Shown: positions 53,914 to 60,356 of the stretch, piece by piece
Layout: each line of letters begins with the position of its first letter
Numbering within the stretch: position 1 is the stretch's first letter
Assembly (NCBI GenBank): GCA_031292375.1
Contig: JARLHF010000021.1
Coordinates: 1,785-65,784 of the forward strand
Length of the DNA stretch: 64,000 bases
Direction: 5' to 3'
Source of the DNA: Chlamydiales bacterium
Lineage (GTDB): Bacteria; Chlamydiota; Chlamydiia; Chlamydiales; VFKH01
Position numbers and translations under genes: made by a program
The notes under the pieces: generated by a model
The model's database searches: none
Told to the model about the DNA's origin: nothing
Seen by the model: only the letters and a program-made list of their open reading frames with translations

Positions 53914-56900
53914 CTATTTTGAAGTTTTTGCAGAACATGAGTTATGTAAGATTTGCAGAACATGGGAAGCGAACAGATAGCTCTTTTGTTCTAGCTTGTT
54001 ATTAATTCCTAAAAAGCGGTTACAATGCATGTGTAATATGCTTATAATCGCTGCGTTTAAGGAGGGAATTTCTTTTAGACAGGATAGATATTTTTTTTGC
54101 GCTGCATGTCTTCTTGCAAATATGTGCATGAGCAGATTCACCTCTTCCACTTCAGGCTTTTTTTCTAGTATTTGTTTTGCGTAAGATAGCAAAGTGGATT
54201 TCCAAGATCTAAATCCTTCGAGTTCTTTTTTGTTTAGTTGCATGCTCTCAAATAGCTGGATTTGTTCGGAAATAGAAATTTTAAAGTTTTGAAGTAAGTC
54301 TAGTAGACTAAGAGAGGCTATAACATAGTTTGGAAGAGTTGTTTTATGATGCAGCATATACAATGCAACTTCAGAATCAGCATGAAATAGCTCTTCAGCT
54401 GCATTTATTGCAGAAACCCCACCATACCGTTCTATCTCCCTTTCATAAGGGTGGAAAGAATATTCCTTAATGGCTCCGCTTTCCATGAGCTTTTCAGCCC
54501 AGGATGATAAGGTGAAGGTAGAGTGGTTATTTTCCTTATATCTAAGGCGAAGACGAAGGTGAGGACCTTCCTTATCGTTATATTGCACAAAGAACCAACA
54601 GTGCAGATAAGGCATTAATTCTTGTATTAAAGGAGGGAAGTGTTTTTTTAAAAGAGCATCTTTTCCAGATTCTTTAAGATACAATTTTGTGTAAGTCCAT
54701 TCTGATCCGGGTGCTTTCCACCTTTCAGAGTGGGAGATTGTTTGAAAAGGGATATTGTATGGTTTCGATGAGCAATATTTTGCATTTTTAAGGATAGGAA
54801 TTACAAGCTCAGATCGGTATGTTCCAAGCGTACTGCTTATCCATCCAACTTCTCCAACATTTTCCATCAAGATAATTTCTTTTCTTGTTTTTAGATGGCG
54901 AGCAACTTCTTGAAGATGAAAGTCGTGCTTTCGATTTAGTAAAATACGATGGTCTGCAAACATTAAGAAAAGAGTTACGGGTACTTTTTGCTTATCTGCC
55001 CAATGGTCAATTTTTTTGCAAAGCGTCTGTATAGAGTCTTTTTCGGTAGCTTCAAGTAATGATAAAGTGAGGTGCCATTTTGCAGGTAGAAGAACAGTCT
55101 TTTGATACCTTACACGGGGTAAATAAGCCATATTTTGAAGATTTCCCCAAGGAAAAGGATGCAACAGATGGTATTGGTCTTTTGAAATTTCTCTTAGGAA
55201 ACGAATGAGTTTTGGACCTAGTTGAGGGTTTAAAACGTTCATGGATACAACATTGAGTCTTTGACCATTTTTTAGAGTAAGGAATAGATGCTGGTCTGTT
55301 GCACCTACATAAATATCTTCTAAAGAAATTGTTTGAGGAGTATTGCCGTATCCAAGGTTGATATTCAGCTTTCTAAGATTAGGGTGAATAGCCACGTTTG
55401 CACTGCGTGCGTTACTTGGAAAGTAAGAGCCTTCGACAAAAATTTGATCTTGTTCATGAGCTTCTTCAGTATGCAATATATCTTGTATGGCTTGTAAGTC
55501 ATTTTCATTGAAGAGATGAAGAAAGCGGCCAAATGTAGCCATCCCATCTCCACCTGCTACAGTGGGTTGTAAAACAACTAAATAGTTTCCTTGGTCTATA
55601 TCTTGTGGTGATGAAGCAATAACTTCACAATAGACATCTAAAGAAGAGGGCGCCTTTTCTTTTGTTACAGTGATTCCAAATTTTTCGATATCATTATCTG
55701 TTATTACAATTTCATTCTCGTGGCCCTGTACAGAGAGCATCCACTTCCATGCTAAAAATTGTTGCCACTCTTCGCTTATATATTGTTTATCTTGCTCTAT
55801 TTCCTTTGATTCATAACTTTCTGGAAAGCCAAGGCCTGCATGTTCATCTATTAAATCAAGTAAAGGGATGATGCGAAACATCCCCCATTTTTCTAGAAAC
55901 TTGTTGTGGTATTTACGTAAATGAGGAATGCCAAGCGGAGCAAAAGAAAGTCGCCAAAGAGCTTCTGCAGCTTGTGAAATCTCCGTTATAACTGCAGAGG
56001 GAAGTTTTATCTCATTGTGCAGTGTTGTATCTACTTGTAAGACTGTAGAAGGACTTGCAACGGATCTCATCTTCGTATCGATTTCTTGGAATAATACATC
56101 TCCACCTTTTTGATTATAATTTTCTATAAAAGAAGAAATGGATTCTAAATATTCAAGTAGAGGGACTTTAGGATTTGTTGTTTGCAAATTGTTTATGAGA
56201 TTTTTTAGTGGGGACATTGTAAGTAAGCTTGGAAAAGTAGATGAAATAAGAATTTCTTCTTTAAGCAGGGTTTTTAATACATGTAATAATTTGTCTTCTT
56301 CTAAATGAGGAGCTGTTTTTTTCAAGCTATCAAGAAGTTCTTGAATAGAAATAAAGTCTGCTGTCTTCTCTAAAATCATGAAAATTAAAGGAGTTGCTTG
56401 AATGGAGATCTCCTTTTTTTCTTTTTCAGTTTTTAGCCTCATGTAGGGTAATAAAATTCTTCCCATAGACTTTACAAGCAAGGGATTCTTTTTAACTTTA
56501 CTGTAAATTGCAAGAGACTCGTTTGCATTACTAGAATCTAGTACAGTCATTAACCATTCCATATCTGGTCTAGCTACTCGTTGAATATAAGACATATCTA
56601 CATTACCAGTAGTTTTAGAGCTAATATGGCCTATAGAAACAGATGAAAATAGCCCAAAGGGAGTTGCTCGAGTTGCCATTCTTGTGACATATTTAAATAA
56701 AGAGAAGATAGCTTGATTATCGGCGGGATCAATGCTTTGCAGTGCTTTATAAAGCTCAGGAGATGCAATGGCGATGGCCTCTCTTAAATCTATAGACTGT
56801 TTATATAAGTCTAAAAGGTCTTTTCGAAGGTCTAATGATATAGCAATACGATCAAAGACCTCTTTTGGAAAAAAAGGGGTGCGTACCATAAATAGGGGTG

Positions 56901-56925
56901 TTGCTAAGAAGAGATCGTCTGCCAC
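53914..56925 (-). CDS. lanB: class I lanthipeptide dehydratase LanB (full length: glutamylation + elimination domains)
   Basis: 1003 aa. N-terminus FLATPLFMVRTPFFP is typical of Lant_dehydr_N. The C-terminal ~300 aa has a SpaB_C-like layout. GTG start 5 nt after AGGAG. Overlaps lanD by 22 nt. Confidence 0.88.
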   Translation of the reverse strand: MADDLFLATPLFMVRTPFFPKEVFDRIAISLDLRKDLLDLYKQSIDLREAIAIASPELYKALQSIDPADNQAIFSLFKYVTRMATRATPFGLFSSVSIGHISSKTTGNVDMSYIQRVARPDMEWLMTVLDSSNANESLAIYSKVKKNPLLVKSMGRILLPYMRLKTEKEKKEISIQATPLIFMILEKTADFISIQELLDSLKKTAPHLEEDKLLHVLKTLLKEEILISSTFPSLLTMSPLKNLINNLQTTNPKVPLLEYLESISSFIENYNQKGGDVLFQEIDTKMRSVASPSTVLQVDTTLHNEIKLPSAVITEISQAAEALWRLSFAPLGIPHLRKYHNKFLEKWGMFRIIPLLDLIDEHAGLGFPESYESKEIEQDKQYISEEWQQFLAWKWMLSVQGHENEIVITDNDIEKFGITVTKEKAPSSLDVYCEVIASSPQDIDQGNYLVVLQPTVAGGDGMATFGRFLHLFNENDLQAIQDILHTEEAHEQDQIFVEGSYFPSNARSANVAIHPNLRKLNINLGYGNTPQTISLEDIYVGATDQHLFLTLKNGQRLNVVSMNVLNPQLGPKLIRFLREISKDQYHLLHPFPWGNLQNMAYLPRVRYQKTVLLPAKWHLTLSLLEATEKDSIQTLCKKIDHWADKQKVPVTLFLMFADHRILLNRKHDFHLQEVARHLKTRKEIILMENVGEVGWISSTLGTYRSELVIPILKNAKYCSSKPYNIPFQTISHSERWKAPGSEWTYTKLYLKESGKDALLKKHFPPLIQELMPYLHCWFFVQYNDKEGPHLRLRLRYKENNHSTFTLSSWAEKLMESGAIKEYSFHPYEREIERYGGVSAINAAEELFHADSEVALYMLHHKTTLPNYVIASLSLLDLLQNFKISISEQIQLFESMQLNKKELEGFRSWKSTLLSYAKQILEKKPEVEEVNLLMHIFARRHAAQKKYLSCLKEIPSLNAAIISILHMHCNRFLGINNKLEQKSYLFASHVLQILHNSCSAKTSK

Positions 56926-57476
56926 TGTTGCTCCTGTATTTCGAGTTGTAGAATTGACATGATAGACTCTATTGAAGGCAAAACAGGGTTGATTTCGAAT
57001 TGTCTTGAAGCATATTCAAACGCTTCTTTAATGATAGGCTGAATGATTTTATGTCCGTCATCAATAAGGAGCTGAACATTGCGTTGTACCGCTTTGTTTT
57101 GCCACATTGCCCTATTCATGTTAGGAACAAAAAGGACTTTTTTTTGATAAGCTAGGATTGTAGCTGCAAGTAATGTGTCAGCCATACCGTGAGCCGCTCT
57201 TGCAAGAATATCAGCGGTTGCTGGAATGATAATAAAAACGTCTGCCCAGCGAGCGAGCTCTATGTGGTTCATATTTTCTTTCGACAGAGGAAATTCATGT
57301 GTGTAGATACCTTCAGATAGTATGTGAAGGCTTTCTTTTGGAATAAATTGGCTTGCTGTATGAGTTAAAATTATTTTTAACCGTGGGAAGTGCTTGTAGA
57401 TCTCTAGAAGGTAATTGGGTAAAAGGAGAACAGAAATGGATCCTGTAATACCAATTAATACTTTTGTATCGTTCAT
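56904..57476 (-). CDS. lanD: LanD/EpiD-type HFCD flavoprotein (peptidyl-Cys oxidative decarboxylase)
   Basis: 190 aa. VLIGITGSISV (FMN fold), NHIELARWAD (EpiD active-site His region NHINIV), IIPATADILARAAHGMADTLL (PASANT-type motif), PNMNRAMWQN (EpiD PNMNIRMWGN). Confidence 0.88.
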   Translation of the reverse strand: MNDTKVLIGITGSISVLLLPNYLLEIYKHFPRLKIILTHTASQFIPKESLHILSEGIYTHEFPLSKENMNHIELARWADVFIIIPATADILARAAHGMADTLLAATILAYQKKVLFVPNMNRAMWQNKAVQRNVQLLIDDGHKIIQPIIKEAFEYASRQFEINPVLPSIESIMSILQLEIQEQQWQTISS

Positions 57477-60117: not shown

Positions 60118-60146
60118 CTATAGGAGGAGACAAGCCCCTCCTATAG
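60118..60146 (-). terminator. 10-bp-stem hairpin between lanA and the downstream modification genes (candidate attenuator / partial terminator)
   Basis: mRNA sense CUAUAGGAGG-ggcuugucu-CCUCCUAUAG, 9 nt after the lanA stop. No clean U-tract follows. AAGAAGGA RBS and the lanC-like ATG lie 16-45 nt further on. Confidence 0.45.
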
Positions 60147-60155
60147 ATTTAAGTA

Positions 60156-60356
60156 TTAACAACAGAAGCTGTTGTTTGTCCCTGTATTTCCACAACCTGG
60201 TGTACAGAGAGACCTGCTTGTGATGAGTTCATTAACTCCTGGTTTTTCGCCAGGTGCTGCAGTTACTGTGAGATCGAGATCATACTCGTCTATTTCAGTT
60301 TTAGTAGTTTTAAAAAAAATAGGTGACATTGAATTGCGTTCAACTTGCATTAGCAT
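60156..60356 (-). CDS. lanA: class I lanthipeptide precursor LanA (epidermin/nisin-like core)
   Basis: 66 aa. GGAGG (60367..60363) lies 6 nt before ATG 60356. The leader has EYDLDL (an FNLD-box equivalent). The C-terminal 22 aa are ITSRSLCTPGCGNTGTNNSFCC (60224..60159), compared with nisin ITSISLCTPGC... and gallidermin IASKFLCTPGCAKTGSFNSYCC. Confidence 0.9.
   Translation of the reverse strand: MLMQVERNSMSPIFFKTTKTEIDEYDLDLTVTAAPGEKPGVNELITSRSLCTPGCGNTGTNNSFCC

What the first reader, a model, noticed from the sequence alone, without database searches (positions are those of the whole stretch)
53914..60356. Compact class I lanthipeptide operon (lanA - pseudo-lanC - lanC - lanD - lanB) in a chlamydia-like chromosome
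Five tightly packed minus-strand genes:
- Precursor at 60356..60156.
- 54-nt spacer containing a hairpin.
- LanC-like gene at 60101..58800, then a 37-nt gap.
- LanC at 58762..57473.
- ATGA overlap with the EpiD-type flavoprotein gene at 57476..56904.
- 22-nt overlap with a full-length LanB gene at 56925..53914.

This is every enzyme needed for an epidermin-type, AviCys-containing lantibiotic. Such clusters are textbook for Firmicutes and Actinobacteria. I know of no characterised example in Chlamydiae-like bacteria.

The flanking genes (lplA, mnmG, AAA+, ABC, heme, kdp) look like resident chromosome, and no integrase or transposase is nearby. The gene order A-C'-C-D-B differs from epiABCD and nisABTC.

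The predicted product carries the nisin/epidermin lipid II-binding N-terminus. The inferred producer lineage is a diderm that itself needs lipid II for division, so both export and self-protection are open questions.

By eye the operon is more AT-rich than the kdp/RND regions. This was not computed.
Basis: partly seen in the sequence, partly recalled or inferred. Interest (0 to 1): 0.92.

Follow-up and report, generated by a model that had tools for sequence, protein, structure and literature searches.

The report
Clausin-like lantibiotic operon in a chlamydia
An uncultured chlamydia-like bacterium carries an intact, long-resident gene cluster for an epidermin/clausin-type antibiotic peptide; clusters of this kind were already known in chlamydiae, and the only unusual part is a conserved second cyclase-like gene that has lost its metal-binding catalytic residues.

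Summary
Five minus-strand genes at 53914-60356 encode LanA, a zinc-ligand-less LanC paralog (LanC'), LanC, LanD and LanB, and all pass curated HMM cut-offs. The 22-residue core ITSRSLCTPGCGNTGTNNSFCC belongs to the epidermin/clausin group (16/22 identical to clausin). It ends in F-C-C, a valid LanD substrate.

The cluster lies in ordinary chlamydial chromosome. GC and codon usage match the background, so it is not an AT-rich island and not a recent import. An independent assembly reproduces both junctions.

The headline is not new. GenBank already annotates these genes (MDR3624199-203). Marsh 2010 reported a LanABC cluster in Parachlamydia acanthamoebae. Dharamshi 2022 tabulated class-I lanthipeptide clusters across Chlamydiae. 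About 30 chlamydial MAG species carry related LanB genes in one deep clade.

What is new is modest. This is the first look at a LanD-containing, epidermin-type cluster in chlamydiae, and the core is 21/22 identical in a MAG whose enzymes are only 40-50% identical. LanC' is not a pseudogene. It belongs to a monophyletic family seen only in chlamydial MAGs and unnamed metagenome contigs, it evolves about as slowly as LanC, and its role is unknown. A membrane-anchored Clp-D1-like AAA+ gene recurs beside these clusters. No LanP, LanFEG or LanI gene is present.

The parts
60156..60356 (-). lanA, a 66-aa precursor. The leader is residues 1-44 (60225..60356) and carries a YDLDL box at residues 25-29 (60270..60284). 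The core is residues 45-66, ITSRSLCTPGCGNTGTNNSFCC (60159..60224). A GGAGG RBS lies at 60367..60363.
   Evidence: Pfam Gallidermin 1.5e-12 (48.1 bits, cut-off 21). TIGR03731 8.9e-13. NF038155 FDLD leader 23.2 bits, cut-off 20. The core is 21/22 identical to the L007 chlamydial MAG, 18/22 to Alkalicoccobacillus (L043) and 16/22 to clausin (L029). GenBank MDR3624203.1 is named 'gallidermin family lantibiotic'.
60118..60146 (-). Perfect 12-bp stem with a 5-nt loop between lanA and lanC', with no U-tract. It is a likely attenuator or mRNA-stabilising hairpin (inferred).
   Evidence: RNA fold dG -20.5 kcal/mol, z -1.99, 6 of 200 shuffles as stable. The terminator scan does not call it because it has no T-run.
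58800..60095 (-). lanC', a LanC-fold paralog of 431 aa from ATG 60095 (433 aa from TTG 60101). It lacks the catalytic His (replaced by Ile), the first Zn Cys (replaced by Trp) and the Zn Cys-His pair (replaced by Ser-Asn).
   Evidence: LANC_like 1.5e-38. Alignment to MadC 8BYK and to canonical LanCs. AF2 pLDDT 87.3, pTM 0.90. Foldseek top hits MadC TM 0.90 and NisC TM 0.79. Orthologs with the same losses occur in L002, L003, L007, L012, L027, L064, L068 and L090.
57473..58762 (-). lanC, the canonical zinc-dependent lanthionine cyclase (429 aa). His220, Cys290, Cys333 and His334 are present.
   Evidence: LANC_like 1.8e-58. MadC 1.6e-62 and NisC 1.6e-22. HCCH at the four catalytic/ligand columns.
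56904..57476 (-). lanD, an HFCD-family flavoprotein peptidyl-cysteine decarboxylase (190 aa).
   Evidence: Flavoprotein 4.3e-27. The best solved relatives are MrsD 2.6e-36 and EpiD 3.7e-26, ahead of PPC decarboxylases/CoaBC at 1e-16 to 3e-23. The NHIE His aligns with the NHIN His of EpiD, and the PNMNxxMW motif is present. It is 72% identical to the L002 ortholog.
53914..56925 (-). lanB, a full-length glutamyl-tRNA-dependent lanthipeptide dehydratase (1003 aa, GTG start).
   Evidence: Lant_dehydr_N 8.8e-150 and Lant_dehydr_C 1.4e-49. PDB hits 9G04 2.7e-104, MibB-type 5EHK 1.1e-75 and NisB 1.4e-45. In the 24-sequence alignment A2 the invariant columns include R82, R86, T88, D121, D299, R467, R791, E830, R833 and H965.
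52042..53904 (+). Candidate accessory gene. It is a membrane-anchored single-ring AAA+ ATPase of Clp/Hsp100 D1 type (620 aa), convergent with lanB and 9 nt from it. Membership of the system is inferred from recurrence only.
   Evidence: Hsp104/ClpC/ClpB D1 1e-22 over residues 216-574. TssH/ClpB/ClpA NCBIfam hits are far below their cut-offs. Two hydrophobic segments at 143-161 and 176-194. Homologs at 30-40% identity sit beside lan genes in L003 (two copies) and inside the operon of L007.
50183..51961 (+). Candidate exporter, an Atm1/MsbA-like half-size ABC exporter (592 aa). The link to the cluster is weak.
   Evidence: ABC_membrane plus ABC_tran. NaAtm1 2.4e-120. It is 48% identical to an ABC gene embedded between the lanA genes and lanC in L005/L009. 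Here it directly follows a DUF3419 gene, so it may be housekeeping.

Best explanation
This is a resident, functional class I lanthipeptide biosynthetic operon of an uncultured chlamydia related to Parachlamydiaceae. It makes a 22-residue AviCys lantibiotic of the epidermin/clausin group.

Mechanism (gene content is shown; the chemistry is inferred from the characterised clausin, epidermin and nisin pathways):
1. lanA is transcribed first. The 12-bp hairpin after it probably lets lanA mRNA exceed the enzyme mRNA.
2. The 44-residue leader, through its YDLDL (FxLD-type) box, recruits LanB.
3. LanB glutamylates and eliminates up to seven Ser/Thr: T2, S3, S5, T8, T14, T16 and S19.
4. Zinc-dependent LanC closes ring A (3-7), ring B (8-11) and ring C (16-21).
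5. LanD oxidatively decarboxylates Cys22. The C-terminus F-C-C fits the EpiD substrate rule.
6. The resulting enethiol adds to Dha19 to give the AviCys ring D.
7. The leader is removed after the conserved V-N-[EQ]-L motif by a protease that is not encoded in the cluster.
8. The predicted product has a monoisotopic mass of 2062.84 Da.
9. Its nisin/epidermin-type A/B rings would bind the pyrophosphate of lipid II in competing bacteria.

LanC' has the LanC fold but no zinc site. It is most likely a non-catalytic partner that binds LanA and acts as a scaffold or chaperone in the modification complex. This last point is the weakest step.

The cluster type entered the chlamydial lineage long ago and diversified within it. 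It is not a recent import.
For: Family assignments:
- All five genes pass the curated cut-offs.
- Catalytic residues are present in LanC and LanD, and the conserved LanB columns are present.

Precursor:
- The core has Cys at positions 7, 11, 21 and 22 and Ser/Thr at 3, 8, 16 and 19, exactly as in the clausin-type peptides of L029 and L043.
- The same mass calculation applied to the L029 core gives 2107.78 Da, against the published clausin mass of 2107.86 Da with 7 dehydrations and -46 Da (PMC10413542).
- The EpiD substrate rule [VILMFYW]-[ASVTCIL]-Cys fits F-C-C (PMC8549060).

Selection on the product:
- The L007 core is 21/22 identical while its LanB, LanC, LanC' and LanD are only 40, 44, 43 and 50% identical.
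- About 40 metagenomic precursor clusters share ITS[KRQH]SLCTPGCGNTGTxNS[FY]CC behind divergent [YF]DLD leaders.

Residency:
- The neighbours are housekeeping genes.
- GC, GC3 and RSCU are native.
- Chlamydial LanBs form one deep clade.
- The Logan contig is 100% identical over 16.5 kb spanning both junctions and was seen in 6 samples.

LanC' is under constraint:
- Intact orthologs occur in at least 9 clusters.
- They are monophyletic.
- Their divergence is similar to that of LanC and LanB.
- The fold is predicted with confidence.
- lanC' follows lanA directly both here and in L090.
Against: - There is no expression or product data.
- No LanP (S8 protease), LanFEG, LanI or LanRK is found in the 64 kb. 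The predicted cleavage site (Leu at P1) differs from the Pro-Arg / Pro-Asp sites of characterised relatives.
- Export across two membranes is unexplained. The nearby ABC protein is Atm1/MsbA-like and may be housekeeping.
- The promoter scan found fewer sigma-70-like sites than chance (9 found, 19.5 expected), so no promoter is assigned.
- Whether chlamydial tRNA-Glu suits LanB was not tested.
- The scaffold role for LanC' rests on conservation alone. Clausin-type clusters in Bacillaceae make the same ring pattern without it.
- The LanB and LanC trees are NJ trees without bootstrap support.
Confidence: 0.82

Rival explanations
1. LanC' is a zinc-independent cyclase dedicated to one ring. The most attractive candidate is AviCys ring D, where the nucleophile is an already activated enethiolate. 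On this reading the cluster has two cyclases with divided labour.
For: - The cyclase domains of class III synthetases lack the zinc ligands yet still cyclise (PMC7268733).
- The catalyst of AviCys ring closure is unknown (PMC8549060).
- All four close LanC' orthologs (window, L002, L003, L007) and L090 sit in LanD-containing clusters.
- All three chlamydial clusters with an identified epidermin-type LanA (window, L007, L090) have LanC'.
Against: - LanC' also lacks the general acid/base His.
- Four other members of the same LanC' clade (L012, L027, L064, L068) are in clusters with no LanD within 10 kb.
- LanD occurs without LanC' in L030 and in the Bacillaceae clausin clusters. Clausin and epidermin were made in E. 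coli with clausBCD alone (PMC10413542).
Confidence: 0.2
2. The operon is a silent or decaying relic of an old transfer from Firmicutes, and no peptide is made.
For: - There is no dedicated protease, immunity or regulator gene.
- The producer is probably an obligate intracellular bacterium, in which secondary metabolism is often lost.
- No promoter was found.
Against: - All five ORFs are intact, with catalytic residues in place.
- The genes are translationally coupled.
- The core is 21/22 conserved across clusters whose enzymes are 40-50% identical.
- Codon usage is native.
- The cluster type is retained in about 30 chlamydial species.
Confidence: 0.07
3. The cluster is a mis-binned or chimeric Firmicute fragment and is not chlamydial DNA.
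For: - Epidermin-type peptides are textbook Firmicute products.
- The sequence comes from a MAG.
Against: - A second assembly (Logan, SRR23300978) is 100% identical over window 47473-64000. It joins the operon to chlamydial mnmG on one side and to the AAA+, ABC and DUF3419 genes on the other.
- Composition and codon usage equal the rest of the window.
- The nearest LanB, LanC and LanD proteins are all from Chlamydiae MAGs at 40-72% identity, against 27-32% for Bacillota LanB (36% and 42% for the clausin-type Bacillaceae LanC and LanD).
Confidence: 0.02
4. The peptide is made, but its role is not killing competitors. It might be a signal or a developmental or host-directed factor, or it might act on the producer's own lipid II-dependent division machinery.
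For: - No immunity genes were found.
- The intracellular lifestyle limits contact with Gram-positive targets.
- Many lanthipeptides are not antibiotics (established knowledge, for example SapB; PMC7268733).
Against: - The N-terminal 11 residues are ITSRSLCTPGC, which match the ITSISFCTPGC of the clausin-type L043 peptide at 9 of 11 positions and the nisin lipid II-binding A/B-ring sequence (recalled from memory) at 10 of 11.
- The core is highly conserved, as expected for binding an invariant target.
Confidence: 0.15

Closest known systems
Clausin (Shouchella/Bacillus clausii) and its relatives in alkaliphilic Bacillaceae (clausABCD-type clusters; L029, L043)
   Same: - A 22-residue core with the same Cys and Ser/Thr register, 16/22 identical to clausin and 18/22 to the L043 peptide.
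- Seven dehydratable residues and a C-terminal F-C-C.
- The same LanB + LanC + LanD enzyme set.
- In the NJ tree their LanB is sister to the chlamydial clade.
   Different: - The window's leader is twice as long (44 aa against 22 aa). Its box is YDLD rather than FDLD, and the junction is V-N-E-L|I rather than V-Q-P-D|I/F.
- The enzymes are only 30-42% identical.
- The gene order is A-C'-C-D-B rather than A-B-C-D.
- The window has an extra LanC' and lacks the flanking ABC genes of the Bacillaceae clusters.
Epidermin/gallidermin (epiABCDQP, Staphylococcus) and mutacin 1140
   Same: - Pfam Gallidermin and TIGR03731 membership.
- An AviCys-forming LanD homologous to EpiD (3.7e-26) with the active-site His conserved.
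- The same predicted four-ring topology.
   Different: - There is no LanP subtilisin and no Arg at P1.
- There are no LanFEG/H immunity genes and no LanQ regulator.
- The core is 13-14/22 identical (comparison sequences recalled from memory).
- The host is a diderm.
Parachlamydia acanthamoebae LanABC cluster (Marsh et al. 2010, PMC3091789) and the antiSMASH 'lanthipeptide-class-i' regions of Chlamydiae (Dharamshi et al. 2022, PMC9666466)
   Same: - Class I lanthipeptide clusters in the same phylum.
- Parachlamydia and Parachlamydiaceae LanBs fall in the same chlamydial LanB clade.
   Different: - Marsh et al. name only LanA, LanB and LanC in the P. acanthamoebae cluster, and its LanA grouped with Bacteroidetes-type peptides.
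- The Parachlamydia/Parachlamydiaceae loci fetched here (L022-L024, L026) showed no LanD or LanC' hit in the BLAST table.
- The window belongs to a different subclade that has LanD, LanC' and an epidermin-type core.
Maddinglicin enzymes MadB/MadC (Clostridium maddingley; PDB 9G04, 8BYK)
   Same: They are the best solved structural relatives of LanB (2.7e-104), LanC (1.6e-62) and LanC' (2.3e-35; model TM 0.90).
   Different: MadC has the full zinc site (C298, C344, H345) and H228 (PMC9889658). LanC' has none of these.
Cyclase domains of class III lanthipeptide synthetases (LanKC)
   Same: They have a LanC fold without the three zinc ligands (PMC7268733).
   Different: - Those domains are fused to lyase and kinase domains.
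- LanC' is a stand-alone protein that arose by duplication of a chlamydial class I LanC.
- Its model resembles MadC/NisC (TM 0.79-0.90) far more than ThurKC/PneKC (TM 0.5-0.56).

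Membership tests
Class I lanthipeptide biosynthetic gene cluster | A full-length LanB dehydratase with both the glutamylation (Lant_dehydr_N) and elimination (Lant_dehydr_C) domains | tested here: met
   8.8e-150 and 1.4e-49, covering model positions 5-647 of 649 and 1-254 of 255. NisB 1.4e-45.
Class I lanthipeptide biosynthetic gene cluster | A stand-alone LanC cyclase with the Cys-Cys-His zinc ligands and the catalytic His | tested here: met
   The gene at 57473-58762 has H220, C290, C333 and H334.
Class I lanthipeptide biosynthetic gene cluster | A precursor with an FxLD-type leader box and a Ser/Thr/Cys-rich core | tested here: met
   YDLDL at residues 25-29. NF038155 scores 23.2 bits against a cut-off of 20. 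The core has 7 Ser/Thr and 4 Cys.
Class I lanthipeptide biosynthetic gene cluster | Dehydration and thioether formation actually occur on the peptide | not testable with these tools
   This needs co-expression and mass spectrometry.
Epidermin/gallidermin/clausin group (AviCys lantibiotics) | The precursor matches the gallidermin family models above their curated cut-offs | tested here: met
   PF02052 48.1 bits (cut-off 21). TIGR03731 48.1 bits (cut-off 29.3).
Epidermin/gallidermin/clausin group (AviCys lantibiotics) | A 22-residue core with Cys at 7, 11, 21 and 22, Ser/Thr at 3, 8, 16 and 19, and a C-terminal [VILMFYW]-[ASVTCIL]-Cys | tested here: met
   Read directly from ITSRSLCTPGCGNTGTNNSFCC. 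The register is the same as in the L029/L043 peptides. The substrate rule comes from PMC8549060.
Epidermin/gallidermin/clausin group (AviCys lantibiotics) | A LanD (HFCD flavoprotein) closer to peptidyl-Cys decarboxylases than to CoaC, with the active-site His and the PxMNxxMW motif | tested here: met
   MrsD 2.6e-36 and EpiD 3.7e-26 against PPC-DC/CoaBC at 1e-16 to 3e-23. NHIE and PNMNRAMW are aligned.
Epidermin/gallidermin/clausin group (AviCys lantibiotics) | A dedicated LanP subtilisin-type leader protease and a Pro-Arg (or Pro-Asp) cleavage site | tested here: not met
   No peptidase S8 is found among the ORFs of 120 aa or more in the window. The junction is V-N-E-L|I, and it is V-N-Q-L|I in L007.
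Epidermin/gallidermin/clausin group (AviCys lantibiotics) | LanFEG and/or LanI self-immunity genes in the cluster | tested here: not met
   No ABC-2/LanFEG-type or LanI-like genes are found in the 64 kb.
Epidermin/gallidermin/clausin group (AviCys lantibiotics) | Lipid II binding and antibacterial activity | not testable with these tools
   Only the conserved A/B-ring sequence can be shown.
LanC lanthionine cyclases (as enzymes), asked of LanC' (58800-60095) | LANC_like alpha/alpha-toroid fold | tested here: met
   Pfam 1.5e-38. AF2 pLDDT 87.3. MadC TM 0.90.
LanC lanthionine cyclases (as enzymes), asked of LanC' (58800-60095) | Zinc ligands (NisC C284, C330, H331) and the acid/base His (H212) | tested here: not met
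   The four columns read I, W, S, N. Orthologs read FWFC, FWIH, FWVH, FKSF, FDTH, YKSI and YYCF. The L090 ortholog reads F, W, A, Y.
LanT lantibiotic exporters, asked of the ABC gene 50183-51961 | A half-size ABC exporter genetically linked to lan genes across relatives | tested here: inconclusive
   The architecture fits. It is 48% identical to an ABC gene inside the L005/L009 clusters. Its best matches are Atm1/MsbA-type proteins, and here it follows DUF3419.
Clp/Hsp100 chaperones, asked of the AAA+ gene 52042-53904 | A Clp N-domain and two AAA+ rings (ClpA/B/C), scoring above the equivalog cut-offs | tested here: not met
   Only a D1-like module (residues 216-574) matches. Scores are 89-99 bits against cut-offs of 885-1232. 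The N-terminus has TM segments instead.

The most novel reading that the evidence does not exclude
LanC' is a new kind of lanthipeptide accessory protein. It is a zinc-free LanC-fold protein, found so far only in chlamydial MAGs and unnamed metagenome contigs, that either closes the AviCys ring or chaperones LanA through LanB, LanC and LanD. If it is the AviCys cyclase, it would answer the long-open question of what catalyses enethiol addition in AviCys lantibiotics. The recurring membrane-anchored Clp-D1-like AAA+ protein may be a second new component, possibly linked to export or leader removal in a diderm producer.
Probability: 0.15. Interest if true: 0.75.

Novelty: new member of a known kind. 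Interest (0 to 1): 0.42.

Why it matters
The enzymes and the peptide are textbook class I / epidermin-group chemistry, so the finding does not change how lanthipeptides are understood.

Its value is threefold:
1. It extends a lipid II-targeting AviCys lantibiotic family into probably obligately intracellular diderm bacteria. The core has been held almost invariant there while the enzymes diverged to 40-50% identity. This suggests a real ecological role, for example competition among microbes that share a eukaryotic host.
2. It exposes a conserved, catalytically stripped LanC paralog whose function can be tested directly by reconstitution with and without it.
3. It supplies a natural clausin variant, predicted at 2062.84 Da, for antibiotic screening.

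How such a producer exports the peptide and avoids poisoning its own lipid II remains unanswered.

Tried and rejected
1. AT-rich island or recent horizontal transfer. Rejected: GC, GC3 and RSCU distance of the lan genes lie inside the distribution of the other 33 genes of the window.
2. LanC' as a pseudogene. Rejected: it is an intact ORF with a confident fold and has orthologs in at least 9 clusters, diverging at the same rate as LanC and LanB.
3. Strict co-occurrence of LanC' and LanD, which would support an AviCys cyclase. Only partly true: 5 clusters have both, 4 members of the LanC' clade have no LanD nearby, and LanD occurs without LanC' in L030 and in Bacillaceae.
4. ABC gene 50183-51961 as LanT by family assignment. 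Inconclusive: it is Atm1/MsbA-like.
5. The AAA+ hit in L008. Discarded: it is a genuine two-ring ClpC. The 553-aa neighbour of lanC' in L002 is unrelated to the AAA+ protein.
6. DUF3419, DUF8085 and the 260-aa protein as cluster members. There are no homologs in any of the related loci.
7. The metagenome scan with a LanC' profile returned only two already-known contigs and two weak hits.
8. tRNA and Rfam scans of the whole window found nothing, including in the 373-nt region upstream of lanA.
9. The promoter scan found fewer sites than chance, and the only site near lanA overlaps its RBS and ATG. No promoter is claimed.
10. The exact look-up of the 1003-aa LanB failed because the gene caller used a later ATG.
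11. The source genome is not among the GTDB species representatives.
12. Cluster look-ups of the metagenomic LanA relatives gave no organism names.
13. Literature searches for stand-alone zinc-less LanC paralogs in class I clusters found nothing relevant. The only precedent found was a two-LanC Frankia cluster noted without residue analysis.

Full report
OBSERVATION. The ATGA overlap of lanC and lanD is real. So are the 22-nt lanD/lanB overlap with an AGGAG-N5-GTG start, the 37-nt lanC'-lanC gap and the hairpin in the lanA-lanC' spacer. That hairpin is a perfect 12-bp stem at 60146..60118 with dG -20.5 kcal/mol and no U-tract. lanC' more likely starts at ATG 60095, giving 431 aa, the length chosen by the gene callers and by GenBank, than at TTG 60101.

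Pfam and NCBIfam place every protein far above the curated cut-offs. LanB has both dehydratase domains (8.8e-150 and 1.4e-49). LanD is a Flavoprotein (4.3e-27). There are two LANC_like proteins (1.8e-58 and 1.5e-38). LanA matches Gallidermin/TIGR03731 and the FDLD-leader model. Its GC (0.363-0.393) and GC3 (0.284-0.351) sit inside the window's gene-to-gene spread of 0.383 +/- 0.023 and 0.302 +/- 0.046, and its codon usage is no further from the background than that of the other genes in the window.

SOURCE AND CONTEXT. The proteins are identical to GenBank entries MDR3624199.1 (lantibiotic dehydratase), MDR3624200.1 (flavoprotein), MDR3624202.1 (lanthionine synthetase C family) and MDR3624203.1 (gallidermin family lantibiotic). 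These come from a 73-kb contig of a 'MAG: Chlamydiales bacterium'. An independently assembled Logan contig, seen in 6 samples, is 100% identical to window 47473-64000 and crosses both ends of the operon. The adjacent mnmG is 74-75% identical to Parachlamydiaceae, Parachlamydia and Protochlamydia proteins, and its best unnamed hit is 83%.

The rest of the window is housekeeping chromosome. It holds AlaRS, Mfd, EF-P, KdpABCD, heme genes, an RND efflux system, RNase III, RadA, LplA and a GGDEF response regulator. It has no integrase, transposase, S8 protease, LanFEG, LanI or LanRK. No tRNA or Rfam family is present. Contamination or chimerism is therefore very unlikely.

THE ENZYMES.
- LanC (57473-58762) has the catalytic His and the Cys-Cys-His zinc ligands. 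Its best solved relatives are MadC (1.6e-62) and NisC (1.6e-22).
- LanD is closer to the peptidyl-cysteine decarboxylases MrsD (2.6e-36) and EpiD (3.7e-26) than to PPC decarboxylases or CoaBC (1e-16 to 3e-23). It keeps the active-site His and the PxMNxxMW motif.
- LanB aligns end to end with MadB-type 9G04 (2.7e-104) and with NisB. In a 24-sequence alignment its invariant columns include R82, R86, T88, D121, D299, R467, R791, E830, R833 and H965. From memory of the NisB literature, these correspond in position to the glutamylation and elimination residues.

THE PEPTIDE. LanA has a 44-residue leader with a YDLDL box and a 22-residue core, ITSRSLCTPGCGNTGTNNSFCC.

Scanning the species-representative genomes with a LanB profile and then BLASTing the loci returned three related precursors:
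- A chlamydial MAG (L007, isolate OFTM171) with core ITSKSLCTPGCGNTGTNNSFCC, 21/22 identical to the window.
- Alkalicoccobacillus porphyridii (L043) with ITSISFCTPGCGNTGSFNSFCC, 18/22 identical.
- Shouchella rhizosphaerae (L029) with FTSVSFCTPGCGETGSFNSFCC, 16/22 identical.

The Shouchella core, with 7 dehydrations and -46 Da, computes to 2107.78 Da. This matches the published clausin mass of 2107.86 Da (PMC10413542), so that peptide is clausin.

The window's core has the same register: Cys at 7, 11, 21 and 22 and Ser/Thr at 3, 8, 16 and 19. It has seven dehydratable residues. Its C-terminal F-C-C obeys the EpiD substrate rule (PMC8549060). The predicted mature mass is 2062.84 Da.

The core is almost unchanged between the window and L007, although their LanB, LanC, LanC' and LanD are only 40, 44, 43 and 50% identical. 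An exhaustive phmmer search found about 40 further 50%-identity clusters of metagenomic precursors with divergent [YF]DLD leaders and the motif ITS[KRQH]SLCTPGCGNTGTxNS[FY]CC. This is the signature of strong selection on the product. The junction motif V-N-[EQ]-L before the core is shared with L007, and L003 has V-D-T-L. It is unlike the Pro-Arg / Pro-Asp sites of characterised relatives, and no protease gene is in the cluster.

DISTRIBUTION AND HISTORY. LanB's nearest relatives are chlamydial MAG proteins at 31-48% identity. The genome scan found LanB in about 30 chlamydial species-level MAGs, including Rhabdochlamydia, Sacchlamyda, Protochlamydia and Parachlamydia. Next come Paenibacillus, Brevibacillus, Ktedonobacteria and Actinobacteria at 26-32%. 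In an NJ tree without support values, all chlamydial LanBs form one deep clade whose sister is the clausin-type Bacillaceae pair. The window sits in a subclade (W, L002, L003, L007, L015, L069, L008) in which LanD, LanC' and the AAA+ gene are concentrated.

Chlamydial precursors share the YDLD box but have very diverse cores. Among the fetched genome loci only the window and L007 have an epidermin-type core, and the metagenomic contig L090 has one as well. Together with native codon usage, this points to an ancient acquisition followed by diversification inside the phylum.

LanC'. The second LANC_like protein lacks all four catalytic or ligand residues. His is replaced by Ile, the first Zn-ligand Cys by Trp, and the Cys-His pair by Ser-Asn. 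It is not a pseudogene, for these reasons:
- Orthologs with the same kind of losses occur in L002, L003, L007, L012, L027, L064, L068 and L090.
- In the 5.8-billion-protein collection the family has only about ten 90%-identity clusters. Every named member is chlamydial.
- The family is monophyletic and nested inside the chlamydial LanC radiation.
- It is as conserved between genomes as LanC and LanB are: 42-44% against 44-49% and 40-48%.
- It keeps its own motifs (RDTWW, GRAG, WDRAFL).
- It is predicted to fold confidently (pLDDT 87.3, pTM 0.90) into a MadC/NisC-like toroid (TM 0.90 and 0.79).

None of the roughly 45 non-chlamydial clusters sampled has such a paralog. L010 and L016 show an independent second loss of the zinc ligands. 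lanC' directly follows lanA both here and in L090.

Its function is open. I favour a non-catalytic LanA-binding scaffold or chaperone. The rival is a zinc-independent cyclase, as in class III synthetases (PMC7268733), perhaps for the AviCys ring, whose catalyst is unknown (PMC8549060). That rival is weakened because half of the LanC' clade lives in clusters without LanD, and because clausin and epidermin can be made with clausBCD alone.

NEIGHBOURS. The convergent gene 9 nt from lanB (52042-53904) is a single-ring Clp/Hsp100 D1-type AAA+ protein with two N-terminal hydrophobic segments. Homologs at 30-40% identity lie beside the lan genes of L003 (two copies) and between lanA and lanC in L007. 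The L008 hit is an ordinary ClpC and was discarded.

The ABC exporter at 50183-51961 is Atm1/MsbA-like. It is 48% identical to an ABC gene embedded in the L005/L009 lan clusters. Its link to this operon is unproven.

PRIOR KNOWLEDGE.
- Marsh et al. 2010 described a LanA/LanB/LanC cluster in Parachlamydia acanthamoebae. They noted its oddity in Chlamydiae and proposed acquisition from Firmicutes (PMC3091789).
- Dharamshi et al. 2022 ran antiSMASH across Chlamydiae. Their Data S10 lists 'lanthipeptide-class-i' regions in at least eight species, one of them with epidermin as the top MIBiG hit (PMC9666466).
- A 2024 paper mentions a lanthionine synthetase in Algichlamydia (PMC11317633).
- The large RODEO survey does not mention Chlamydiae (PMC7268733).
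- I found no description of the LanD-containing epidermin-type chlamydial clusters, of LanC', or of the AAA+ association.

VERDICT. This is a real, intact, resident class I lanthipeptide operon for a clausin/epidermin-type AviCys peptide. It is a new member of a known kind, in a phylum where such clusters were already reported. The conserved zinc-less LanC' and the recurring AAA+ neighbour are the parts worth an experiment.

Noticed in passing
window 52042-53904 (+); L003 459-2255 and 2338-3999 (-); L007 5050-7926 (+): A membrane-anchored, single-ring Clp/Hsp100 D1-like AAA+ ATPase lies 9 nt from the end of lanB. Homologs at 30-40% identity lie beside or inside related chlamydial lan clusters. 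In L007 the gene sits between lanA and lanC on the operon strand. Its role is unknown.
   Followed up: partly
window 50183-51961 (+); L005 4704-6491 (+): An Atm1/MsbA-like ABC exporter lies two genes from lanB. It is 48% identical to an ABC gene embedded between the lanA genes and lanC in L005/L009. Here it directly follows a DUF3419 (BtaA-like) gene, so it may be housekeeping rather than LanT.
   Followed up: partly
L002 6583-7944 (-); L090 4750-6078 (+): A beta-lactamase-fold (PF00144) protein sits next to lanC' in two related clusters and is 44% identical between them. It is absent from the window. It could be a leader peptidase or an immunity factor in those clusters.
   Followed up: partly
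L003 4265-4504 (+) and 4704-4925 (-): The L003 cluster has LanD and LanC', but its two LanA candidates end in ...WCK and ...GCH rather than in Cys. Either LanD acts after C-terminal trimming there, or it has another substrate.
   Followed up: no
L010 10255-11550 (-); L016 14440-15798 (-): These are a second, independently derived LanC paralog in two chlamydial MAGs. It keeps the catalytic His but has lost the zinc ligands (HDST and HDSK at the four columns).
   Followed up: partly
L069 5913-9725 (+); L008 14879-15556 (-); L005 4145-4537 (-) and 11226-11417 (+): Several chlamydial clusters carry tandem arrays of 3-5 different lanA genes, for example five in a Rhabdochlamydia MAG. All have the YDLD leader box, and their cores are very different.
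   Followed up: no
window 60385-60404 (-): A 7-bp inverted repeat, GTCCTGT-N6-ACAGGAC, lies about 17 nt upstream of the lanA GGAGG ribosome-binding site. It sits in a 373-nt intergenic region that has no tRNA or Rfam match. It could be an operator or a 5'-UTR hairpin.
   Followed up: no
window 1654-7251 (-): A 1865-aa RHS-repeat protein, a possible polymorphic toxin. It has the second-highest GC (0.426) and second-highest GC3 (0.400) among the 33 background genes compared in the window.
   Followed up: no
window 30997-32346 (+) and 41818-43209 (+): A stand-alone condensation/PapA-type acyltransferase lies next to kdpD. A 463-aa Fic-domain protein also lies in the window. Both are possible effector or secondary-metabolism genes unrelated to the lan operon.
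   Followed up: no
P0215-P0255 (metagenomic proteins): About 40 clusters at 50% identity of long-leader precursors share the core motif ITS[KRQH]SLCTPGCGNTGTxNS[FY]CC. Some have short C-terminal extensions after the CC (TC, SCK, TCR, R, M) that would have to be removed before LanD can act. No organism names are available for them.
   Followed up: partly
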